A stretch of DNA of 64,000 bases. Source: Anolis carolinensis. Its lineage: Eukaryota. The position numbers and the translations under genes are program-made. The notes below the pieces were generated by a model, which saw only the letters and a list, made by a program, of their open reading frames with translations, did not search any database and was not told the origin of the DNA. The DNA lies in contig NC_085845.1 in the NCBI RefSeq assembly GCF_035594765.1, forward strand, positions 60,196,024 through 60,260,023. The letters run 5' to 3'. Positions 8,916 to 64,000 of the stretch are shown here, piece after piece (positions within the stretch are counted from its first letter, which is position 1; each line of letters begins with the position of its first letter).

Positions 8916-9078
8916 GATTGACTATATGGTTTTTCCCAATTGATTTTTTTAAAGGTTACAAGCCTTTTCAGATTCTATCCATTTGTAAGCATTCGTGCTC
9001 TCCTTTTTATTGTGTCTTTTACTGAATTGTATTTAATACTCCAGGTTTTTTAGCCCGTCTCTGAGTTAGTCTGTAGCA

Positions 9079-11134
9079 GCCTTAGCTAATGCTAAGAAAG
9101 ACCGTTGGATAGAGCTGCTTGAGAACCTTGACATGTCCAAGAGTAGCCGAAAAGCCTGGCAACTGCTGAGACGCCTGGATAGTTATCCTGTGGTCAACCA
9201 TGGACACGCAAACGTGACACCAGACCAGATAGCTCACCAGCTAATTCAGAATGGGAAAACCAACTGCAGCAAAATAAAGATGAAAATCAACAGGGTGCCA
9301 GAACTTGAAACCCACCAGTTGTCTTCTCCTCTAAACCTGAAAGAACTCAGAGAAGCCATCAAGCGATGTAAGACTGGTAAAGCACCTGGCCTAGATGACC
9401 TGATGATGGAGCAAATCAAACACTTGGGCCCCAAAGCTGAAAACTGGCTTTTGAAATTTTACAATCAATGCTTGGCACACAAACAGATTCCCAGAGCATG
9501 GAGGAAAACTAAGATCATTGCCATTTTAAAACCTGGTGAAGATGCCTCCAATGCCAGGAACTACCGACCAATCTCCCTCTTATGTCATCTATATAAAGTC
9601 TATGAGAGGATGCTATTAAATCGACTAGGACCTGTTATCGAACTTAAGCTTATTGCACAATAAGCAGGTTTCAGACCAGGGAAAAACTGTACAGGTCAAA
9701 TTCTTCATCTGACTGAGCATATCGAGGAAGGCTATGAGAAAGGCTGCATTACGGGAACAGTTTTTGTGGACCTTACGGCAGCCTATGACACGGTGCAACA
9801 TAGAAAAATGCTGCATAAAGTCTACCATATCACCCGGGACTTTGACTTTACAAAAACTGTCCAGACCCTCCTGGAAAACCGCAGCTTCTATGTGGAGTTT
9901 CAGGGCAGGAAAAGTAGATGGAGGAGGCAAAAGAATGGTTTACCCCAAGGAAGCGTTCTTGCACCGACCTTATTTAATATCTTCACCAATGACCAGCCAC
10001 AACCACCACTCACAAAGAGCTTTATATATGCTGATGACCTTGGCCTTACAACACAAGCAAAAGATTTTGAAACAGTTGAAAACCAGCTCACTAATGCCTT
10101 GAAAGATCTCTCCAGCTACTACAAAGAGAACCACCTGAAGCCTAACCCTGCCAAGACATAAGTGTGTGCTTTCCACCTACGTAACCGTGAAGCCAACAGG
10201 AAACTGAAAGTTACTTGGGAAGGCCAAGAGCTCGAACACTGTTTCCATCCTAAATATCTTGGTGTCACCTTAGATCGAACATTAACATATAGGAAACACT
10301 GCATGAACACCAAGCACAAAGTAGCTGCACGCAACAACATCCTGCGGAAACTGACTGGCAGCTCATGGGGTGCAGACTCACAAGTAATAAGAACATCAGC
10401 CCTGGCCTTGTCTTTCTCAACTGCTGAGTACGCCTGTCCTGTCTGGCAAAAGTCTGCCCATGCGAAGCAGGTGGACATAGCACTGAATGAAACATGCAGA
10501 ATCATCACAGGATGCCTTAAACCTACACCTGTTGATAAACTCTACAAGTTAGCTGGCATTGCCCCTCCTGATGTGCGACGGGAAGTTGCTGCTAACGGTG
10601 AGAGAAATAAGGTCGAACATTGTGAAAGCCACCCACTGCATGACTATCAGCCTCCTCCCACCAGACTCAAATCAAGGAAGGGCTTCATGAGAACCACCAC
10701 TCCTCTTGATGTTCCTCCAGCAGCAGCAAGGGTGTCCCTCTGGGCAGCTAAACCTGGCAATTCTAACTGGATGCCCCCCCCCCCCATGAGGGTCTTTCTC
10801 CAGGGGCAAACCAAGAATGGGCAACTTGGAAGTCCCTGAACAGACTCAGAAGTGGAGTGGGCAGATCTAAAGACAACTTGGCAAGGTGGCACTACCTGGA
10901 GGAATCCTCCACCTTGTGTGACTGTGGAGCAGAACAAACAACTCCACCTATGTATGCTTGCCCACAATGTCCTGCCTCATGCACGGAGGAGGAGTTGTTT
11001 AAAGCTACGGACAATGCGGTTGCTTTTGCCCGTTTTTGGTCTAAAACTATTTAGTTGCTTGTAATTTCCTTTTTTCCCCCATCATTTTAAAATGTATTTG
11101 TTATGCAATGCTTTTGACACGAAATAAATAAATA
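9079..11134 (+). mobile_element. 5'-truncated Vingi (Ingi-related) non-LTR retrotransposon with a disabled RT ORF
   Basis: RT motifs (NYRPISLL, QAGFRPG, DLTAAYDTV, GLPQGSVLAP, YADD, KYLGVTLD) and a C-terminal CxC...C knuckle; (TAAA)n tail; 11-bp TSD AGTCTGTAGCA at 9068-9078 and 11135-11145; stops at 9661 and 10159, frameshift at the C12 run 10774-10785. Confidence 0.9.
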
Positions 11135-28100: not shown

Positions 28101-31100
28101 GGAGTGCTACCCTCCGGCAGTGACGAGAAATCGTGCTAGATGCCTGTGGTTTCTTCAACTTATTGTTGTGAACTCTAAACCTGGCCACATAATGAATTTA
28201 GACTTTCACAGCATGTTTATTGTTACTATAGCTACAAGCCCTTTTGAAGGCTAGGCACATAATGTACATATGAGTTTCTACCTAACTACAGGCAGTCCCG
28301 GAGTTACAAACATCTGACTCAGTTAAATCAGGGATAAAGCAACAGGAAGTGGGAGAAATCTACCCCCAGGAAGGAAAATTCACTCTTGAAAGAGTTATCA
28401 TGGGGATAGTAAGGTAAAGGTTTTCCCCTTGACATTAAGTCTAGTCATGTCCGACTCTGGGGATTGGTGCTTATCTCCATTTCTAAGCCGAAGGGCTGGC
28501 ACTGTCCATAGACACCTCCAAGGTCATGTGGCCAGCATGACTGCATGGAGCACCATTACCTTCCCACCGGAGCAGTACCTATTGATCTACTCACATTTGC
28601 ATGTTTTTGAACTGCTACCCTGTTTCCTCTAAAATAAGATATCCTCAGAAAATAAGACCTAGTAGAGGTTTTGCTGAATTGCTAAATATACTTACTTACT
28701 TAGGCGATCTCTCGTAGGTCGAGGATGATGGTCTTCCAGTCATGGGGTCTTGAAGGTGGATTCTTAGGTGGCTGAAGAGACCTATTCTTGATCTGCATGT
28801 TCTCCCACAGTGAGGACATCAGTTTCCAGGTTGAAGGCGGTCCCGGTCAGGGTTGGCTTGACGGGCCTTCCTCTTGACATGTTTCTCCCTTAAGCCCTCC
28901 ATTCATGCCTCTTCAAACTCTGCAGCACTGCTGGTCACAGCTGACCTTCGCAGTTCTCAGTGTCTATGCCACAGTTTTTAAGGTTGGCTTTAAGCCCATC
29001 TTTAAATCTCTTTTCCTGCCCACCAACATTCCGTTTCCTGTTCTTGAGTTCGGAGTAGAGTAGCTGCTTTGGGAGACGGTGATCGGACATTCGGACAACG
29101 TGGCCAGTCCAGCGGATGGCGTAGGAGCATTGCTTCAATGCTGGTGGTCTTTGCTTCTTCCAGCACACTGACATTTGTCCGCCTGTCTTCCCAAGAGATT
29201 TGCAGGATTTTTCTGAGGAGGAGTTGAGTGTGATGTCTGTAGACTGTCCACATTTCGCAGGCGTAGAGCAGGGTTGGGAGGACAGTGGCTTTGTAAACAA
29301 GCACCTTGGTATCTCTACGGATGTCCCGGTCATCAAACACTGTCTGCTTCATGTGGAAAAATTCTGCACTCGCAGAGCTCAGGCGGTGTTGTATTTCAGT
29401 GTCAATGTTGACTTTTGTGGAGAGGTGGCTGCCAAGGTAGCGGAAATGGTTAACATTTTCTAATGTTACACCATTAGGCTGTATTCCTGGCATTGCAGAG
29501 GGATTAGCTGGTGCCTGTTGGAAGAGCACTTTGGTTTTCTCGATGTTCAGTGAGAGGCCGAGCTTCTCGTATGCTTCTGCAAAGGTGTTTAGAGTGGCTT
29601 GTAGGTTTTCTTCTGAGTGTGCACAGACTACGTTGTCATCGGCATATTGGAGTTCTATAATAGATGTTGTGGTGACCTTGGTTTTGGCTTTCAGTCTGCT
29701 GAGGTTAAACACCTAGCAAAGTTTTTGTTTGGAAGCATGCCCGCTGAACAGAACACTAGAGCATGCAGGATCAGTAAATGTACGTACCATAAAGTGTTGT
29801 ACATGGAAATATTGGTAGTAACAAGAAATTCTTGATAGGATTCACAGTTTGTCTGGTTATGCTGGTTTATGATGACAACTACTGTACAGTATATAATAAA
29901 TGTTCATTTTTTTTGTTCAACAATAAATGTGAATTCTTCATGGAAAAATAAGACATCCCCTGAAAATAAGACCTAGAGCATCTTTGGGAGCAAAAATTAA
30001 TATAAGACACTGTCTTATTTTCAGGGAAACATGGTAGGTTAGCAGAAGCTAGGGCTAACAGTGCGAGCTCCCCTTCCTGCCCGAATTCGAACCGCTGACC
30101 TTTCGATCAGCAAGCTCAACAGCTCAGTGGTTTAACCTGCTGCACCACTGGGATAATGTGTCTCAGCTGAAGCTTTATCCTTGTTTCTACAACAAACCAT
30201 TTTTTTTTTCGAAATCCAGTTATCACAGGAACAGAAAATGAGGTGTATAACTCAAAGTGCTGATTTTATCCTTCAAAACCATAAATGTCCCAGGAATATG
30301 GTATTGTGCCAGTCTCTATTATCCCTGCTGCCTTTCACATGCGTTGGACTAGAAGTCCCATCAGTCCCAGATAACATTGCTAGTAGGCATCCAGCAATGT
30401 GGAGATTTTAGATTGTTTATTTTTAAAGGCTTTATTAAATTCATTTATCTTTTCAAGCAACTATTCCAGTAGTTCATTACCATTATCATTCCAATTTAAA
30501 AGTTTATCTTTCCTCAGAAATAATTCAGATATTTTCTTTTTGAAGATAAAAAAAATCAATGTTGCAGCATGGGGTACAGTACAAACCAGTACTTAAACCC
30601 TATGACATATCTGCATTACTATTTTATGAAACTACATTTCTATAACTATAAAAATGATACCACAATCTAATGTGGTTATACCTTTGCTATTAGAAGAAGA
30701 AGGAGCAAATTGCAAGTAATTTATTATCTGGAATGAATTACAGCTGAACTACGTGTGGGCATGATGGGAGTTGGAGTCCAGAACACCTGGAGATTAATGG
30801 GTGGTGACAAAGTCTCCATTCATTAAGACATACTTCATTGCTAAGGAGATATCCTAATAATGGTTCTGTGCTTTTAGAAAGTGCCCTGCCTAGATTTGCT
30901 TGGCTGGTTGCGAGACTCTTTAGCACCAAATAAGGACTTTTTTTCTTTTATGCTTCTTAGTGGATCACAAAATAATAAAATGAATGACTGTTACAAAAGA
31001 GAGACAAATACTAATTCAAAAGAAAGATACAATGCTGATGAGAAAGTACGTTTTTCGGTTGTCTGATTTTTCTATGATAGCCCTATTTTGAAATATCTAA

Positions 31101-34100: not shown

Positions 34101-37100
34101 CCCCCCCAATTTCATTGCTTTTTCGTTCCAGAGGGGGTTGTAACGTCCCGTGCCATCCAAATGGATGGCACGGTACAAAACCAGGAAAGAAACAGATGAA
34201 ACAGGATTCAGGCCCAACTCTACGATACAGTCAGTGGATGAGCATGTGCAAATGGTGCCCTTGAATTAGAATATCGAGTAGGACTTGCCTTCCTGTTGGA
34301 TATCGAGATGAGACATTAGCTTTCATTATGAGTGTTGCTAACAGAGTTGTAGACCTTTGGTCCTCTGAGTGTTTTGTATTTCAGCTTCCAGAATACCTGA
34401 GCATTGGACTAGCTAGCCAGGACTTCTGGGAGCTGAAGACCAAAATACCTGGGGGGAAAATAAATAATTCCAAAAGTGCTAGTTATATGCAAAATTGTAT
34501 GTGAATCTAGGAAAGTAATAGCACCCAAAATGAGCAGATACATAAGGAGCAACATAAGTCAGAGATGTTACATAGAAACTATATGGAACAGATATGCCAG
34601 CTATTGCCCCTTATACAGACACACATTGCATTTTAAGAGCATGCTACTATCCTGTTTATCTCCACTGCTTTTCTGTTCAGAACAGAATATAACAGAGGTG
34701 TATGTGAGCATCTCAGATTCTTCATCCAGTTTGTGCACAGTTAGCCAATGACATAATGCTGAGAAATTGCTAATCCCTAGCAGTCTTTCCTTGCCACATT
34801 TGCTTGTGATAGTCATAAATATTGATGAAGAGCCATAGGTGTTTTCTTGGAGACATTTCTGCATCTTCTTTGCATCTACACCTGCCTTCCAGTTGAGACA
34901 TTATTAAGATTTATTGTGGGGCCTGAACATTACATCTCCTGCACCATTGCTTGAACTTTGTTGCCTTATAAGTGTTCACATTTTATTATATGAGTTAAAA
35001 ATCTTGATTTTACTTTTATTTTATTTTATATTTTGGCATGTCAAAGAGCAGTGATTTGTCCCATTCCTGCAGTCCGTCCAGGCTTTCTTACAGCAGAAAA
35101 GTGAACAGAGAAAAGATGGGGCACTTGATACATCAGGACACTCTCCGCATGGTTTCAGCACATGAGTAAATTGCTGGAAAAGTACTTCAAAGCTTGTGCC
35201 TTTGTATTGCCAAGAGGGTCAGATGCAATTAGGAGACCTGTGTCTTTTTTTATAGAGTCAAACAGCCTTTTCTTGAGTCTGGCCTTTCCACCACTATAAA
35301 GGCACATGTCTTTTCTACTTCCCTGTGTACTTTTTAATAATCTAAGTAATGTTGATAGCAATTCGGAATTGAGCTTACCATCAACAAATATACCCATTAG
35401 TGATGATTTAATATTCTTATCTTCTGGGAATCTAGATATTTAATTAAGTACATGCAGTTTGTTTTCAGTTTTTTAAAAAAAATAGTTTGTGTTGTAAGCT
35501 CCAAGCTAAATATTTTATAACATATATGGAAACTTCTTTTTTATTATTTGATAGCACACTTAAAAGAGAGACTAGAGGAGTATATTAAGCAGTGGAATGG
35601 CCTTGTAAAGATTTTTCGAAATGAAAGGAGAGAAGGTTTAATTCAAGCTAGAAGCATTGGAGCCCAGAAGGCTAAACTTGGACAGGTAGAACACTGTTTG
35701 CTAAATAAAACCCTCCTTTCTCTACAATCTACATTTTGCTTTTAACAACCTTTTAACCACTTTATTATTTTAACTGTAGTTCTTAATTGCAATATTGCAT
35801 ATAGTGTTTTAAAGATAGTTGTTAAAGCGATGTCAACTTAAAATACAAAAACACACAAGTAAATCAGTATGTATTTTGTGCAAGGAAATCTCAACTGAGT
35901 TGAAATCTCCTTTCCTCTTTATTTTAAAGGTTTTAATTTACCTTGATGCCCACTGTGAGGTGGCAGTAAACTGGTATGCACCACTAATAGCTCCTATCTC
36001 TAAAGACAGGTAATAAATTCTGCTTATTTCCATATTTCAGAAAGTATTTAAAATAGCCTTATATTTTCTTGCTCACTCAGGACAAGTAACAGTGGTTTCT
36101 GGGTGAGTAACTTTCTAGCTCTTTCTCCAAATGCCCAAATAGTTGTCTGCTGGTTGGTTGATATAATCTTGTTTTTATATGCAAGGCTATTCTGGGGTGT
36201 GTGGGAGTGATAATTGCATCAATAATTCCGGATTTGCCAAGATTGGGTATTTGTAATACTACAATTTCTAGTGTTTTAGCAAACAGATAAACTAGAAAGG
36301 AAGCAGTCTTGGAATAATATACATTTGGGATCCTATAATATGGCATTAATGTGATACAGGTTTCCATTTGGTCAAACCCCAATATACAAGGGATATCTGG
36401 AAAGTAAGCTTACAAGATTTGTTTAAAATTCAAAGAATGAATGTACAGTAGAGTCGCACTTATCCAACATTTGCTTATCCAATGTTCTAGATTATCCAAT
36501 GCAGTCTGCCTTTTAGTACTCATTGTTTTTATAGTCAATGCTTTCAATACATTGTGCTATTTTGGTGCTAAATTCGTAAATACAGTAATGACTACATAGA
36601 ATTACTGCGTATTGAACTACTTTTTCTGTCAGATTTGTTGTATAACATGATGTTTTGGTGCTTAATTTGTAAAATCATAACCTTATTTGATGTTTAATAG
36701 GCTTTTCCTTAATCCCTTATTATCCAACATATTTGCTTATCCAACATTCTGCTGGCCCATTTATGTTGGATAAGTGAGACTCTACTGTATTTTAATAAAA
36801 CTTACATGGATTATAGCATAGGTATTACATTATTTTTCCACATAATCACCATGCAGTTCAGTACATGTTGTCATCTGTGGGATGAGTTTTTTGATGCCTC
36901 TGTCTAGAAGTCTCCTGCCGCCTTTTTCAGCCAGTTCTCTTTGAGTAAATTTCAGACCCCGTCTACAGGAGTTGGTGGTGGTGGAAGAGGAGGAGGAAGC
37001 AGCAGCAACAGAGCCGGAGATGGGAGCAGAGGCGAGGCCAAGGCTGCCTCTTGGCTGGAGGGGCTCCCCAAGCTGCTGAGCCATGGCTGAGCGCACCCGG

Positions 37101-40100
37101 CCCAACATGCTGCTGCTGGAGCGAGGAGGAGGAAAGCGACAGGGAGGAAGAGGAACATGCTGCCACCTCCTCCTCTTTCCTCCTCCTCCAGCATGTTCAT
37201 CTTCTTCCTCTCCATCACCTTCCTCTTCTTCCATCTCGCGCTGGTGGCAGCATGTTGGGCCAGGTGCGCTTGGCCATGGCGCAGCTTGTTGGGTTCGGCA
37301 GCTCGGGGAGCCCCTCCAGGCAAATGGCATCCTCGGCTCTACCACCGCCTTGGCCCCTTCCTCCTCGTCACCCTCTTCCACTGCTGCCAGCTCCTGCAGA
37401 TGAGATCTGGCAGTTCCTCGAAGTGAACTGGCTGAAAAAGGCGGCAGGAGACTTCTAGACACAGGCATCAAAAAACTCGCCCCACGAATGACAACATGCA
37501 TTGAACTGCATGGTGATTATGTGGAAAAATAATGTAATACCTATGCTATAATCCATGTAAGTTTTATTAAAATATATTCATTCTTCTTATTTTTTAAAAA
37601 AAATCTTGTAACCTTACTTTCCGGTTATCCCTTGTAGTTAAAATGGTGTGAAATCATAGACACCTATCTCTTCAAAACTGTGTTCTAAAAGTGCAAACCA
37701 TAAACGTGGTTGAATTAGAAAGCATGATGTTGGAACTGACTCTTTTTTTTCCCTTTTCATCTTTCTGTGCCCTGTAAATAATAAAAATAATAGTATGGTA
37801 AAAGAGCTTATTTGGCTTTCTACCTTCCAGCAGAAAAACACCAAGCCAGTTTTCAAATGCATATATTAAGTATATCCAAAGATAGTTCATTTACTGTCTA
37901 GCTTTAAATCGGACCTATTTTTATATGTACATGTTTTAGCCAACCTAGTCTCACAAAATGGCAGTCCCTTTGAGTACAGCAGTGTTTTCCTAACAAAAAA
38001 CATATTGCTTCTATCGTTCCCCTTGAAAATATGTCTCCTAAAACTATGAATGAAGAGGTAGACTAGTGTACCGATGTTCTGCTTTTAGTGTGATTGTATT
38101 CTTATATTACTTTAAATTCATCCTGCTCATTCATAACCTCCTCCCCACTTCCTTCTAAAAGAATAGCAATGTTTTGTATGCTTGCTCTAATTACATTGGA
38201 ATAAAGTTTAAACGGTAGGCAATTATATTGGATTAGACAGCTTAACCTTGTCTCTTCCCCTTCCATAAATGTTTCAGAACTACATGCACTGTGCCTCTAA
38301 TAGATTACATTGATGGGAATGACTATTCCATTGAACCACAGCAAGGTGGGGATGAAGATGGTTTTGCCAGAGGGGCCTGGGATTGGAGCTTGCTGTGGAA
38401 GCGTATTCCATTAAGCCACAAGGAAAAGGCAAACAGAAACTATAAAACTGAGCCATATCGGTAAAGAACGCTGTTTCATTCTATTGATCTTTGTAGCTCA
38501 TGCTTATCTAAATCCTGTCATTTTCCCCCTTTCTTTTCCATGAACCATGATTCGTTTAAATGTGCCATGTACCTGCTCTCATCCTCACTGCCACCACCCA
38601 TAATCCTGCAGAACCACATGCACTGTTCCGCTTATAGATGTCATAGATGGCAACACTTATAACATTGTCCCCCAAGGGGGGGGTGACGACGATGGGTATG
38701 CTAGAGGAGCATGGGATTGGAGTATGCTGTGGAAGAGGGTGCCCTTGACCAAACGTGAGAAGGAAATGAGAAAGACAAAAACTGAGCCGTATCGGTAATC
38801 ACTAAACCACTTACACGTTTCTCCTTTTCCTAAGGGATGTGCTAAACTATTAAATATACTTGCATGAACTCTTCAGATCTTTAAAACAATGCTAACCAAA
38901 GCAGCTACTCTGTCAGGAGCATCCCTCTTTTCACTAACTCACAGTCAGGCTCTTCTAATGGTAGTCTTACTAACTCCCTTTGCACTACTCTGTAATGTAC
39001 TTTGCATACTCAGTTCTCTAAGCAAAATACAGGATAGTTCTTAATTGGATTGTTTCACAAAAACATGTGATCTGCCATTGGACCTTCGGGCTTTTTAGAA
39101 ATGGCTTAGCATGCTTGTTATGAATAGCACACTGTTAGGAATAGCAAACGTTTCTCTTGTTCGAGTGCATGCATACTGCTCATGGTTTTTTTTTTTCTTT
39201 CACTGTGTCAGGAGCGACTTGAGAAACTTCAAGTCGCTTCTGGTATGAGAGAATTGGCCGTCTGCAAGGACGTTGCCTAGGGGATGCCCGGATGTTTTAC
39301 CATCCTGTGTGAGGCTTCTCTCATGTCCCCGCATGGGAAGTTGGAGCTGACAGACAGGAGCTCACTCTGTAGTCCTGCATCACAAGGGTTTAAGCCATTG
39401 CACCACCAGAAGCTCCTACTACACATATTAACCAGAGATGGTCAGGCTGGCCCTTTGTGAAAACACAGCTACTATTGGCATATGTGGTTTTATATAGCCA
39501 CGAATCTACACATTTAAAGACCCAATGTATTGAATGGGACAAGACAAAAGCCAAGAGGTTCCTGTGATTTCTATCTTTCCTTAAAATCACTCTGAACCCG
39601 TAAGGTCAAGGTAGTGTCCCTGTTTGGGCTACTGGAAAGACCTAGTTAATAGAAGTGTAATATTTGAGTCAGAGAGTTGGCCAGAGCTCCATCTAATCCA
39701 GGCATGGGCAAACTAAGGCCCAGGGGCCGAATGTGGCTCCCTGGGCGCTTACCTCAGGCCCTCATTTTCCCTGCCCACTTGGCATATGGATGTGGTGGCC
39801 CGCCACATCCTTATGCAGAAAAGATGGGGGAGGAAGGCATGAAGCATCTGAGAGCCTATGGAATGCACTCAGCCGCCGCGTGTCTCGCCCTCCTCCCAGC
39901 ATAGGGACAGTGTGAGAGGCCCTGTCCTTATTCCGGGAGGACGGCTCGAGGAAAGCACATAGCATTTGAGAGTCCTCTGGATCACTCTCAGACATCACCT
40001 GTCTCGCCCTCCTCCTGGCATATGGCCAAGAGGACAGCCCGAAGATCGGGGGAGGATTATTGGGGAGGTGCAATTGCCTCATGTCCCGATTTGGGAGGAA

Positions 40101-59432: not shown

Positions 59433-62400
59433 CTGCAGGAGCAACAAAAACATGTGGACTTACAAGCTTAATTTTAACCATCTTTACAAATAGCAAACTG
59501 ATATCCCCAAACTTGCTGTACAAAATCTTCTGCATTATAAGCCTTTTTTCTCCCTGCACCATGTGGTTATTAACTCGTGCTTTCCTTCTCCAGGTACTGT
59601 AGAACATAAAAGCTGGGAACTCAACTGCAGTAGCACTTCATTATAAGAGCTTTGCTTCGTCCATAACACATTTTTACTCTTTTTTTTCCTCCAAGAAATG
59701 TCAGCAGTCTCTAGGTGTCTCGTAATAAAGACAAATCCGTAATTATTTTTCTGGGACATGGTTGTATCGAAATGAACAACGGATCTGCCATCTATCATAA
59801 CATGCAAGACAAAGGATGAGCTCTTAAATGCTATAAAGCAAACTAACACAGGTTGAGTTTTGTTGTCCATAATTGTTTAGAATACCTGTATTTGAATACA
59901 GATACCAAATGAAAAATCTTGGGAAATGGGAAATACAAAATTCATTTGTTTCATATACACCTCATACACAGGGCCTGAAGACAAATTTAATAATCGTGTA
60001 CATGAAACAAAGTACGCATACACAGAAGAATCAGAAACCAAAGGTGTCACTACCTCAGCCACACACAGAGACAACTTTGGATATTATATTTCAGAATTCC
60101 AGATAACTGTAACTGAAAAACAAGGATTGCTTTTATGTTACCTTGTCATATTTCTCCTTCAGTTTTAATGCCTTCTGCTCAAAGGGTAGTTTATCTTTCG
60201 CTGTCTGCAAAGACCACATTTCACCTAATTTTTTTGCTGTATCCCCAATAGACAAGCCTGGATGATCACTTTTTATCTTTGGACGATGTTCAGAACAAAA
60301 CAAGAAGAAAGCAGATCTAGAAAGAAGAAAAAAGGTGTCATAGCCAATGTCAACCTCCAGGACACACAAGCACTAACAAATGTTTTCACTGATTGGGATA
60401 ATAAAATGTTCAGAATAAGTGGTCCAGTGAAAAATTACAAAAAAATTGCTAAACACAATTGAAGATAATGGACTTACGGTGGTCTTTTGGGAGCATTTGG
60501 GTCCTTTCTCTTCTTCACTCCTTTGGGAGGAATATAGTTCTTCATCTCTCTATCATATCGAGCTTTGTCACCTTTTGCCATGTCTTCAAACTTGCCCTTT
60601 TCCTTTGCAGACATTGTCTATGGAAAGGGGAAAATGAGAAATCTCACATTTAAAGTGGACAGCAAACCATTAAGTATTTTGAGTTTCTGAAGGGCAATTT
60701 TCCCTCTAGGTTATATTGCAAACCAGCCTTGTTATACAAGATGCAACTAGAATTGGGGAGTCCAGTCACCTTCAATTAATCCTTCTATCCCACTAATGTA
60801 CTTATTAAAAATAGTACTTTGTTAGTTGTTGGTGTTGATTTTAGGGCCCCTGAACCAGATGGTGACTAAAACAGCAGCAACTTCCTCCTAACAGTAACCG
60901 CAATGACTTGAATGTCAAGGAACTGTTTCACAACTGTTTACCATCAAACTCAAAGAATACTGACTAGCTATTAGATCAGGTTCAGACAACATAATCCTTT
61001 GCTACATATATCTAAGATTATTTTTGTCCCAAACTTCCTTAGAATTAAGTCTTTTGTGAAGGAGTATCGGCAAAACACTCCAAATACAGCTTTTTTTTAG
61101 GCTGTTGGAGGATGAAGTAAATACCTTATGTGATTGAAAATTGGTAATGTAATATGCTTGGGGGATTAGACAAGAGTAATGAAAATTTGCATCAACATTT
61201 TTTGTAGTAAGTTATTTCCATATATTTTACTTGTGGAAGCACTAAGTTGCAAATTCCCAATTGGAGGATCACCCAATTTCTAACACAATGGACTGCTTTG
61301 CTTTGCCAGTCTTGAGAGAAATGACCTGTCGCAAGACCAGTTCTCAAAACAAATCCTTATATTTAGCTTTCATTCACAGCAAATTATACATGCTCATTCA
61401 GAAGTTCCCAAATAATCTAATGTAGGACTGAAACTCTCAAAAAATATTTTGTAGCAGCTAAAAAAAGAGAAAGGAATTGTAACATACTTTCTCACTCATA
61501 TAATGCAGTTTTAACTGCATTATAGGAGTCCATACTCTGAGCCATTCAAAATTGCATTATATGGCAGTGTAGATAGGGGCCTTGGTTACTTTCAAAGGTG
61601 CTCCAAGACCCCTTTGGACACAAATGTTCCCCAAGCAATACTTGAGGAAGCTGCCCAAACCAATGTGCAACAAGTATCCAGATTCAACTATCCTTGGCAT
61701 AATATAGCACCACATAATAGTTGTATATTTTATATTACACATGTTACTGTTAATATTGCAGTAAAGTGGTACAGTAGAATATGGTAATGTATTTTTTATC
61801 TGTTTCATGAGCAATTTGAGAAACTCCAAGTCGATTCTGGTGTGAGAACTGGCTGTCTGCAAGGACATTGCCCAGGGGACGCCCAAATGGTTAACGTTTC
61901 ACCATCCTGTGGGAGGTTTCTCTCATGTCCCTCAAAGTAATACATAATACTAACATTGTGCTATGCTAATAATGTAACATATTTTATATATACTTGATTA
62001 TTTGATTATTCATATTATGTTTCTATTTTGATGTTAATTTATCTTTTATCAATAAGTTTATGGTTATTGTTTTGTATTATCTGGCATTACTTTTCAGATG
62101 TTTGTATTTGCATAGGGCATTGAATATTTGCTGTTTGGAATTGTGGGAGTTGAAGTCCAAAACACCAGGAGGGCCAAAGTTTGCCCATGCCTGCAGTACT
62201 GTAATAATATATACTAATAACACAATATATAATATTGTAACATTGTAATACTAAGATATTAACATAATTACTAATATATAGAAATACTGTGTTATTGTAT
62301 ATTTGAAGCTGTAGTGTTTTCTTGTGAGCCGCTTTCAGTCTCAGTATGGAGTGATAAAGCAAGATATAAATAAATCAGTCTCCAATGAATAGCATGGGGG

Positions 62401-63698
62401 GTTTCATTCCATACTGTGACCAAACTTTTAAAATTGTATCTCCTTCCCTCCCTTTTTGATAAAATATATAATACTAAAACAGTATAAGTTGTAATGATTT
62501 TTTATTGTGAGCCACTTTTGAGCCTCTGCATGGGATAGAAATCAATTTCCCAACGAATTGGGGGGGGGGGGGGTTGCATTCCAGAACTGTGAATAAACTT
62601 TTAAAATTGTATGTCCTCCCCTCCCTTTTGATACACTGTTTCATTATTGTATATTTTAAGACTTTTTAAAGTGTGAGCGGCTTTTGAGTCTCCACATGGA
62701 GTGATAAAAGTGCGATAGAAATAGTAGACTCGCTTATCCAACCTACTGTATTATCCAACACAGTTTGCCTTTTAGTAGTCAATGTTTTCAATATATTTTG
62801 ATGTTTTGATACTAAATTCATACAGTAATTACTACATAATGTCACCATGTATTGAACTGCTTTTTCTGTCAATTTGTTGTAAAACATGTTTCAGTGCCTA
62901 ATTTGTAAAATCGTAACATAGCTTGGTGTTTAATAGGTTTTTCCTTAATCCCTCCTTATTGTCCAACATTTTCGCTTATTCGACGTTCTGCTGGCCCGTT
63001 TAGGTTGGATAAGTGAAGCTCTACTGTAAATCAATCTTCCAACGAATAGTAGAGAGGGTTGCATTCCAGAACTGTTTGTTTAGTCGTTCAGTCGCTTCCA
63101 ACTCTTCGCGACCTCATGGACCAGCCCACGCCATAGCTCCCTGTCGGCCGTGGCCAGAACTGTTTTAAATTTTATCTCTCCTTCCCTCCCCCCCCCCCTT
63201 TTTTTCCGCCTTTTAAAAAATAAGAGCGTAAAAGGTAAAAAGAAATGAGCTTCGGACTTTCTCTCAAAAGGCGGCAATAAAGGCTTGGAAAAACACTGCC
63301 CTTCCCTTCCCGCCTTTTAAGCCCTCGGGCGGAGACTTGCAGAAACTGGAAGGAAAGCAAGGAGAGAGCGAGCGCGCGAGGATTGGAAAGGGGGCGGGCT
63401 TTCGGGAGGGCGCGAGGCGAGGCTTTCAGAGGAGCGCGAGGGGAGGGGGCGGGGCTTGCGGGGAAAGCGCGAGGCGGAGGGCGGGGCTTGCGGGGAGGAA
63501 AGCGCGAGGCGAGGGCCGTTGGGGCCTTCTCTTTTTTTCTCTCTTTACCCGCCATCGCTCGGAGCACTTCTTGGAGAACTCGGCGAAGTTGACCGAGGAG
63601 TCTGGGTGCTTCTTCTTGTGCTCTTCGCGGCACGTCTGGACGAAATAAGCGTACGAGGACATCTTGCCCCGAGGCTTGTTGGGGTCGCCTTTGCCCAT
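59268..63698 (-). CDS. HMGB2: High mobility group box 2, complete spliced CDS (209 aa): complement join 63549-63698, 60478-60617, 60142-60316, 59268-59432
   Basis: [49 protein letters not shown]; two HMG boxes, [13 protein letters not shown] linker and an acidic tail; GT/AG introns; 150+140+175+165 = 630 nt. Confidence 0.97.
60142..60316 (-). CDS. HMGB2: HMGB2 third coding exon (175 nt, box B)
   Basis: tctag|ATCT...GACAAG|gtaaca; [35 protein letters not shown]...KEKYDK. Confidence 0.96.
60478..60617 (-). CDS. HMGB2: HMGB2 second coding exon (140 nt)
   Basis: catag|ACAATG...CCACC|gtaagt; [46 protein letters not shown]. Confidence 0.96.
61793..61932 (-). mobile_element. Anolis SINE2-like SINE, 3' half
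   Basis: Homology to the 18421 copy. Confidence 0.7.
62722..63026 (-). mobile_element. Tc1/mariner MITE (CAGTAGAGTCTCAC family)
   Basis: Degenerate TIRs; homologous to the 36446 copy. Confidence 0.8.
63078..63153 (-). mobile_element. BovB/RTE LINE extreme 3' stub (76 bp)
   Basis: [23 protein letters not shown] resembles the BovB C-terminus; 12-bp TSD CCAGAACTGTTT at 63066-63077 and 63154-63165. Confidence 0.8.
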
Positions 63699-64000
63699 GG
63701 CGCCGGAGCCCAACGGTCCCTCAAGTGAGGGCTGTAAAAAACAAAATGGGGAAGGGGAGAAATTAAAAATGGGGGAGGGGAAATATTTCCCGCCCGAATT
63801 ATTTCCCTACAGCCGCCTGCTTCTCTTCTGACTCCGAATTCATTTTAGTCGCCCTCCACGAATAAAAACACAAATAAACCGCCACCCCTCAGCGTAACAG
63901 CCCTCGCAGCCGCGCTTTACGGCCTCCACTTGCCTTGGTCGCAGTGACGGGAGTAAACCAAGAGCCGTTCGCGAGGACCTCCGCCTGCCTTCTCCTCAGC
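63280..64000. promoter_or_regulatory. CpG island over the HMGB2 5' region, with GC boxes and E2F-like sites
   Basis: Dense undecayed CpG; several GGGCGGGG boxes in 63390-63490; TTTCCCGC at 63786-63793; non-coding exon 1 and the TSS probably lie just beyond the window. Confidence 0.75.
63549..63698 (-). CDS. HMGB2: HMGB2 first coding exon (exon starts at acceptor 63731; 5' UTR 63699-63731)
   Basis: Kozak GCCATGG; ends TGGCGG|gtaaag; upstream acceptor ttttacag|C. Confidence 0.96.

What the first reader, a model, noticed from the sequence alone, without database searches (positions are those of the whole stretch)
38461..38611. Intron between exons 6a and 6b looks built for steric mutual exclusion
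Seen: the intron is 151 nt with no AG from 38497 to 38609 (113 nt). The strongest pyrimidine tract (TTTTCCCCCTTTCTTTTCC, 38521-38539) is 70-90 nt from the acceptor. Branch-point-like adenines lie at 38500 (CTCAT), 38506 (CTTAT), 38511 and 38520, only 40-60 nt from the 6a donor. Known: a distal branch point too close to the upstream 5' splice site prevents joining of the two exons, as for alpha-tropomyosin exons 2/3. Double inclusion (366 nt) would stay in frame, so NMD cannot enforce exclusivity and a mechanism like this is needed.
Basis: partly seen in the sequence, partly recalled or inferred. Interest (0 to 1): 0.75.

Follow-up and report, generated by a model that had tools for sequence, protein, structure and literature searches.

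The report
GALNT7 either/or exon branch-point lock
A vertebrate sugar-adding enzyme gene (GALNT7) carries two interchangeable copies of one exon, already catalogued in humans, and the short intron between them likely has its splicing branch point so near the first copy that the two are rarely joined, which would be a known splicing trick in a gene where no one appears to have described it.

Summary
The gene is GALNT7 in a squamate-like genome. Exons 6a and 6b are 183-nt duplicates, already listed as a human mutually exclusive pair. The 151-nt intron has a 113-nt AG-free zone, the longest of 12 acceptors; composition shuffles reach it 5% of the time.

The layout looks old. A fish ortholog has a perfect branch motif at +27, then 238 AG-free bases. 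Back-translated bird-like and mammal-like introns allow TCTAA at +49 and about +41 to +43, matching A38511 (+51) here; each such match is weak alone.

No branch point is mapped and no reads were seen.

Verdict: likely a leaky steric lock of the tropomyosin/OGDH type (about 0.6). My searches found no paper on this mechanism in GALNT7. The scan noted similar locks in other genes, none in GALNT7. New member of a known kind; modest interest.

The parts
38278..38460 (+). GALNT7 exon 6a (183 nt, phase 2-2), the more conserved copy
   Evidence: equals the exon of human ENST00000505308
38461..38466 (+). 6a donor; the stop codon at 38462-38464 ends the 6a reading frame if the intron is retained
38461..38611 (+). 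151-nt intron between 6a and 6b (137 nt in human, 157 and 163 nt in two bird-like sets, 259 nt in fish locus L001)
38497..38609 (+). AG exclusion zone, 113 nt
38498..38512 (+). cluster of predicted distant branch adenines: 38500 (+40), 38506 (+46), 38511 (+51); the TCTAA core ending at 38511 is the intron's only CTAA and the one echoed in other amniotes
   Evidence: predicted, not mapped
38521..38539 (+). main polypyrimidine tract (19 of 19 pyrimidines), 10 nt after A38511
38578..38588 (+). rival branch candidates at the ordinary position: A38581 (-31) and A38587 (-25), followed by a U-poor tract
38609..38611 (+). 6b acceptor (CAG)
38612..38794 (+). GALNT7 exon 6b (183 nt), the copy present in the solved human structure 6iwq (chain residues 263-322)
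35930..36009 (+). upstream exon 5 (approximate ends)
41414..41531 (+). downstream exon 7 (approximate ends)

Best explanation
GALNT7 exons 6a and 6b are tandem duplicates separated by a 151-nt intron with a 113-nt AG-free zone, and exon 6b is likely spliced through a distant branch point near A38506-A38511 that is predicted to lie too close (46-51 nt) to the 6a donor for the two exons to be joined efficiently, so most messages would carry only one copy. Shown: the exons, the intron, the AG-free zone, the pyrimidine tract and the same layout in a fish ortholog. Inferred: U2 binds the distant site, the second step scans about 100 nt to the first AG at 38610, and U1 on the 6a donor and U2 on this site cannot form a productive spliceosome, whereas the far donor of exon 5 can use the same branch point. 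Inferred: the lock leaks, either through the ordinary-position candidate A38587 or because +51 is marginal. A message spliced 5-6a and 6b-7 would keep the middle intron, meet a stop right after 6a and be an NMD target. The swap changes 16 of 60 residues in a segment of the catalytic domain; an effect on substrate choice is untested.
For: Longest AG-free zone of 12 acceptors. The strongest pyrimidine tract follows the distant cluster (tract scores 61-69) and not the ordinary-position candidates (20-30). Fish locus L001: a 13-of-13 branch motif at +27, 238 AG-free bases (67 of 20000 shuffles), and no T-N-A candidate between -111 and -13. Teleost read-through peptides: 9 of 9 allow CTAA within +27 to +44, and 4 of 9 allow CTAAC. 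Intron length varies from 137 to 264 nt while the candidate stays within about 51 nt of the donor. Three Logan proteins (P0176, P0178, P0180) read from this intron into 6b and on through spliced exons 7-12, and one RefSeq fish model (P0022) retains it, as expected of an intron that is hard to remove. No protein with only Logan, JGI or ENA sources or 52 joins 6a directly to 6b.
Against: No branch point is mapped and no RNA reads were examined. A38511 is at +51, at or just over the ~50-nt threshold; from recall, 51-59 nt relieved the block in alpha-tropomyosin. A38587 (-25) scores best for U2 pairing (10 against 7 and 9), and a CTCA is also allowed at -23 to -38 in bird-like and mammal-like sets. 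66 of 210 database proteins join 6a to 6b directly (clusters chosen partly for that reason), among them 18 RefSeq XP proteins from 15 species, including two snakes, turtles, bats and teleosts. The AG-free zone is reached by 5% of composition shuffles. The TCTAA match per peptide is reached by 13-36% of shuffles, about 0.12 if birds and mammals each count once. The AG-free likelihood ratios from back-translation are only 1.1-3.7.
Confidence: 0.6

Rival explanations
1. Exon 6b uses the ordinary-position branch point (A38587 or A38581). The upstream pyrimidine tract and AG-free zone are binding sites for regulators or reflect composition, and either/or choice comes from reciprocal regulation by RNA-binding proteins, with some true double inclusion.
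For: A38587 has the best U2 score in the intron; the distal half of the intron is conserved in a snake-like peptide (0 of 300 shuffles); 18 RefSeq models join the exons; the AG-free zone is only p of about 0.05 on composition.
Against: Only 4 U residues follow A38587; the fish ortholog has no ordinary-position T-N-A candidate and a perfect motif at +27; TCTAA followed by a pyrimidine tract recurs in the amniote sets.
Confidence: 0.2
2. The distant branch point is real and used, but at 49-51 nt in lizards and birds it no longer blocks sterically. Exclusivity there rests on competition between the two acceptors and on repressors in the AG-free zone, as for other distant-branch exons.
For: +49 and +51 against a threshold of about 50 nt; double-inclusion RefSeq models in snakes, turtles and an alligator; regulatory elements between distant branch points and exons are described as general.
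Against: Backup adenines at +40 and +46 are under the threshold; double-inclusion models also occur in teleosts, where the candidate lies at about +27 to +36, so such models do not track the distance.
Confidence: 0.15
3. Competing RNA structures (docker/selector, as in ATE1 or Dscam) enforce the choice.
For: None found; such structures are a known route for frame-preserving exon pairs (listing only).
Against: The intron with flanks folds no better than shuffles (z = 0.25); the 25 longest of 108 inverted repeats between exons 5 and 7 are transposon-like ends, low-complexity or short pairs, none bracketing one exon against the other. Long-range pairing could not be tested by covariation.
Confidence: 0.05

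Closest known systems
Human GALNT7 exon 6 substitution event (event 84 in PMC8373072, supplement rows seen; gene ID also in the human list of PMC7954323, supplement row seen)
   Same: The same exon pair, order and lengths; dated to Vertebrata; the human intron is 137 nt from the listed coordinates.
   Different: The rows seen list the event only, with no splicing mechanism; the proteomics cell is empty.
OGDH exons 4a/4b (PMC7969005, passages seen)
   Same: Duplicated exons, short conserved intron, AG exclusion zone, cluster of distant branch adenines near the donor followed by a pyrimidine tract, kept from fish to mammals.
   Different: OGDH branch points are mapped at +25 to +41 with a ~65-nt tract, and their double inclusion is out of frame. 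Here the sites are predicted, reach +51, the tract is 19 nt, an ordinary-position rival exists, and double inclusion is in frame.
Rat alpha-tropomyosin exons 2/3 (Smith and Nadal-Ginard 1989, seen only as a reference; branch point at -175 from passages of PMC1431707; the 42-nt and 51-59-nt figures are recalled)
   Same: Distant branch point close to the upstream donor, scanning to the first AG.
   Different: Consensus CTAAC branch site and a proven block there; a weaker motif, shorter AG-free zone and no experiment here.
C. elegans gly-5 exons 9b/9c and gly-6 exons 8b/8a (PMC4165533, passages seen)
   Same: GalNAc-transferase genes with frame-preserving homologous exons thought to be kept exclusive by steric interference.
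   Different: There the introns are simply too short (34 and 11 nt); whether the exons cover the same protein segment was not tested.

Membership tests
Tandem-duplicated mutually exclusive exons | Two adjacent homologous exons of equal length and phase | tested here: met
   183 nt each, phase 2-2, 44 of 60 codons identical
Tandem-duplicated mutually exclusive exons | Each copy is found alone in mature products | tested here: met
   121 6a-only and 16 6b-only proteins of 210 (search seeded with 6a); human transcripts for each. Not shown for this organism.
Tandem-duplicated mutually exclusive exons | The two copies are not joined in mature RNA | tested here: inconclusive
   66 of 210 models join them, 18 of them RefSeq XP; none of the assembly-only proteins seen does; no reads examined
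Distant-branch-point exons (AG exclusion zone class) | Extended AG-free zone before the acceptor (100 nt or more) | tested here: met
   113 nt here, 238 nt in fish L001; below the 150-nt cut used for the PMC1431707 list
Distant-branch-point exons (AG exclusion zone class) | Branch motif with adjacent pyrimidine tract at the 5' end of the zone | tested here: met
   A38500, A38506, A38511 then 38521-38539; perfect motif in fish
Distant-branch-point exons (AG exclusion zone class) | No good branch candidate near the acceptor | tested here: inconclusive
   Met in fish; here A38587 is a good motif with a poor tract
Distant-branch-point exons (AG exclusion zone class) | Lariat actually branches at the distant site | not testable with these tools
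   No lariat data; a partial search of the PMC5378181 supplements (11 of 27 files) found nothing
Steric-interference exon pairs (alpha-tropomyosin 2/3, OGDH 4a/4b) | Donor-to-branch distance under about 50 nt | tested here: inconclusive
   +40 and +46 under, +51 over; +49 bird-like, about +41 to +43 mammal-like, +27 fish
Steric-interference exon pairs (alpha-tropomyosin 2/3, OGDH 4a/4b) | Intervening intron kept short across evolution | tested here: met
   137, 151, 157, 163, 231, 259 and 264 nt in seven sets, against 1.9-10 kb for most other GALNT7 introns in the window
Steric-interference exon pairs (alpha-tropomyosin 2/3, OGDH 4a/4b) | A spacer between donor and branch point unlocks double inclusion | not testable with these tools
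   needs a minigene

The most novel reading that the evidence does not exclude
GALNT7 is a natural ruler for the steric limit of the spliceosome. The donor-to-branch distance has drifted from about 27-36 nt in teleosts to about 41-43 nt in mammals and 49-51 nt in birds and lizards, and amniotes have added a second, ordinary-position branch site that acts as a regulated key. The lock could then be opened to make an in-frame enzyme with both segments, or left shut to make an intron-retaining message that is destroyed, tuning both the type and the amount of GalNAc-T7.
Probability: 0.15. Interest if true: 0.55.

Novelty: new member of a known kind. Interest (0 to 1): 0.3.

Why it matters
The mechanism is known and the exon pair is catalogued, so a specialist would not be surprised. 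It adds a likely case to a small class (57 human clusters, 9%, were predicted in PMC5740500, whose searched supplements lack GALNT7). It matters in two practical ways. GALNT7 is widely studied in cancer (listing), apparently without regard to the 6a form. A reported 'exon 6 skipping' in endometriosis used a primer inside 6b, so it may be a 6b-to-6a switch. If the lock holds, the 718-residue database isoforms are minor leaks or annotation errors, and the ortholog series gives a ready test of the ~50-nt limit.

Tried and rejected
No whole genome is held for this window. The run search listed 24 runs with no RNA holder on record; no read-level data were obtained, so junction use in this organism is open. 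Pfam gave no hit for the 60-residue exons. The viral scan gave 4 short chance matches; the metagenome scan gave 1 locus from 420 pattern matches. A pairwise alignment of the lizard and fish introns did not align them sensibly, so I compare layout, not columns. The match of bird-like P0213 to the branch region (2 of 300 shuffles) was set aside: it lies at -59 and is probably homologous to the middle of the intron. Unanchored back-translation matches of the mammal-like peptides were not significant (56 to 224 of 300 shuffles; 24-38 of 100), and P0214 gave nothing. The '6 of 6' count for TCTAA in the last table holds by construction, and P0242 and P0264 are probably one species. AlphaFold models were uninformative: the double-exon protein had both copies under pLDDT 50, but so did the single-exon control. 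No RNA structure signal. U12-type incompatibility was rejected because both donors are GT with U2-type context. Literature: 'GALNT7' with 'mutually exclusive' (30 papers, 28 listed), with 'alternative splicing' and 'exon 6' (1), with 'branch point' (4, none on splicing by their listings), and 'GalNAc-T7' with 'splice variant' (2) showed no paper on this mechanism; GALNT7 was absent from the text and supplement of PMC7969005, the searched supplements of PMC5740500 and PMC9741552, and the text of PMC1431707. Branch-point tables in 16 unsearched supplement files of PMC5378181 and in papers outside the library may bear on the claim. Earlier scan notes: none near this place, none naming GALNT7.

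Full report
Identity. The exon after the intron translates to a 60-residue peptide matching human N-acetylgalactosaminyltransferase 7 (PDB 6iwq, E 9e-33). Homolog mapping places exons 2-12 of GALNT7 at 21656-52528 on the + strand. An HMGB2-like exon lies on the - strand near 63800 (name recalled from the sequence). The best hits to exon 6a are snake proteins at 97%, so the genome is squamate-like. Exons 6a (38278-38460) and 6b (38612-38794) are 183 nt each, in the same phase, and 73% identical in protein.

The observation. The AG-free zone is the longest of 12 acceptors examined in the gene (others 17-66 nt), and 2 of 1977 AG-to-AG gaps reach that length. It is less striking against the intron's own composition: 999 of 20000 base shuffles reach it. 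On a simple U2-pairing score of my own, A38587 is best (10 of 13), ahead of A38506 (9) and A38511 (7). The pyrimidine score after it is 20, against 61-69 after the distant cluster.

The pair is known. Human GALNT7 is event 84 in the catalogue of tandem exon duplication substitutions, dated to Vertebrata (PMC8373072, supplement rows), and its gene ID is in the human list of PMC7954323 (supplement row; not in the main text). The listed coordinates give a human intron of 137 nt. Across 188 copies of 6a and 82 of 6b, the two differ consistently at several columns, for example Y against V/S at 9, Q against G at 21 and L against M at 37, so both have been kept by selection from fish to mammals.

Conservation of the layout. 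One orthologous locus was obtained as DNA, fish-like L001. Its intron is 259 nt, with AG only at +11, +14, +18 and the acceptor. It has a perfect branch motif at +27 followed by pyrimidines, and no T-N-A candidate between -111 and -13; 67 of 20000 shuffles reach its 238-nt AG-free zone. For other lineages I used spurious open reading frames that run through the intron in public assemblies. Antisense frames from two bird-like sets span the whole intron and give 157 and 163 nt. Back-translation allows TCTAA with its last A at +49 in both (one of 4 and one of 2 allowed places). A mammal-like sense and antisense pair, solved together, allows it at one place only, -97, which would be +41 in a 137-nt intron; two more mammal-like peptides allow it at -97 and -95. 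Here CTAA occurs once in the intron, ending at A38511 (+51, -101). Of 9 teleost read-through peptides, all allow CTAA within +27 to +44 and 4 allow CTAAC. This evidence is indirect. Each amniote match is reached by 13-36% of residue shuffles; the joint figure is about 0.12 if birds and mammals count once each and 3e-4 if all six count, which overstates it. Neighbouring 5-mers and the start of the pyrimidine tract are compatible at fixed spacing in 4-5 of 6 sets. The pattern that intron length varies from 137 to 264 nt while the candidate stays within about 51 nt of the donor is the one reported for OGDH (PMC7969005, passages).

Is the exclusion strict? Probably not. Of 210 proteins join 6a directly to 6b, 121 have 6a only and 16 have 6b only (the search was seeded with 6a, and six of the eight clusters opened were chosen for carrying both). 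Many are gene predictions, which join in-frame duplicates readily. However, 18 are RefSeq XP proteins from 15 species, some beside single-exon isoforms of the same species. From my own knowledge, such alternative models usually need alignment support, which may be reads or propagated proteins; I could not tell which. No protein with only assembly sources showed the direct join. Three Logan proteins read from the intron into 6b and then through spliced exons 7-12, and one RefSeq fish model retains the intron. That fits an intron that is slow or unable to splice. In this genome retention would stop translation at 38462-38464. No reads were examined.

Mechanism. Most likely (0.6), 6b is defined by a distant branch point at A38506-A38511 with its tract, the second step scans to the first AG, and the short distance to the 6a donor hinders joining of 6a to 6b; exon 5 can still be joined to either copy. 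The threshold quoted in the literature is about 50 nt (PMC7969005 and PMC5740500, passages), so +46 is inside and +51 is marginal, and A38587 offers a bypass. The rivals are ordinary branching with regulator-driven choice (0.2), a real but non-blocking distant site in sauropsids (0.15), and RNA structure (0.05), for which folding (z 0.25) and inverted repeats gave nothing. Structure prediction could not say whether a double-exon enzyme folds, because the single-exon control failed in the same region.

Comparison and novelty. It works like OGDH 4a/4b and alpha-tropomyosin 2/3 (the 1989 paper seen only as a reference; distant branch points and AG exclusion zones from passages of PMC1431707, PMC2991248 and PMC5378181). 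Membership of the distant-branch class is met on sequence features and unproven by experiment; membership of the steric class is inconclusive on distance. C. elegans gly-5 and gly-6 show that this enzyme family has sterically locked exon pairs elsewhere (PMC4165533, passages). Searches, and look-ups, found no description of a GALNT7 branch point or mechanism; 16 of 27 supplement files of PMC5378181 were not searched. One paper reports reduced exon 6 inclusion in endometriosis (PMC13039441, passages and primer table); its forward primer matches 6b at 38628-38645, so a switch to 6a is a possible reading that I could not test.

Verdict. A real feature: a known exon pair and a known type of mechanism, likely but unproven here and probably leaky. 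New member of a known kind; interest 0.3.

Noticed in passing
window 38628-38645 (exon 6b): The human 'exon 6' forward primer of PMC13039441 matches inside 6b, so the reported exon skipping in endometriosis may be a switch from 6b to 6a.
   Followed up: partly
window 38260-38277: The intron end before 6a looks conserved in amniotes: read-through peptides P0026, P0219 and P0220 end in CKCFR against HKCFR here, suggesting a kept acceptor or regulatory element for 6a.
   Followed up: no
window 38547-38609: The distal half of the intron is strongly conserved in a snake-like peptide, P0212 (0 of 300 shuffles), more than an AG-free spacer would need; possible regulator sites.
   Followed up: partly
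window 38861-38866: A TGCATG hexamer (RBFOX-type, recalled) lies 67 nt after the 6b donor; conservation not tested.
   Followed up: no
proteins P0230, P0233, P0235-P0238: Divergent, probably invertebrate, single copies of this exon resemble 6b more than 6a and end at the same intron position, hinting that 6b is the ancestral-like copy.
   Followed up: no
window 36385-37636: Nested elements with long terminal inverted repeats (53 and 210 nt arms) in intron 5, probably non-autonomous DNA transposons.
   Followed up: no
window 9070-11054 (+) and 28935-29712 (-): Broken reverse-transcriptase-like frames of LINE-type retrotransposons inside GALNT7 introns (class recalled from the motifs).
   Followed up: no
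window 63426-63806 (-): First coding exon of an HMGB2-like gene, tail to tail with GALNT7; a second HMG-box exon lies near 60133-60372.
   Followed up: no
window 44029-44354: Two further long AG-free stretches (112 and 123 nt) inside intron 8, not at an acceptor.
   Followed up: no
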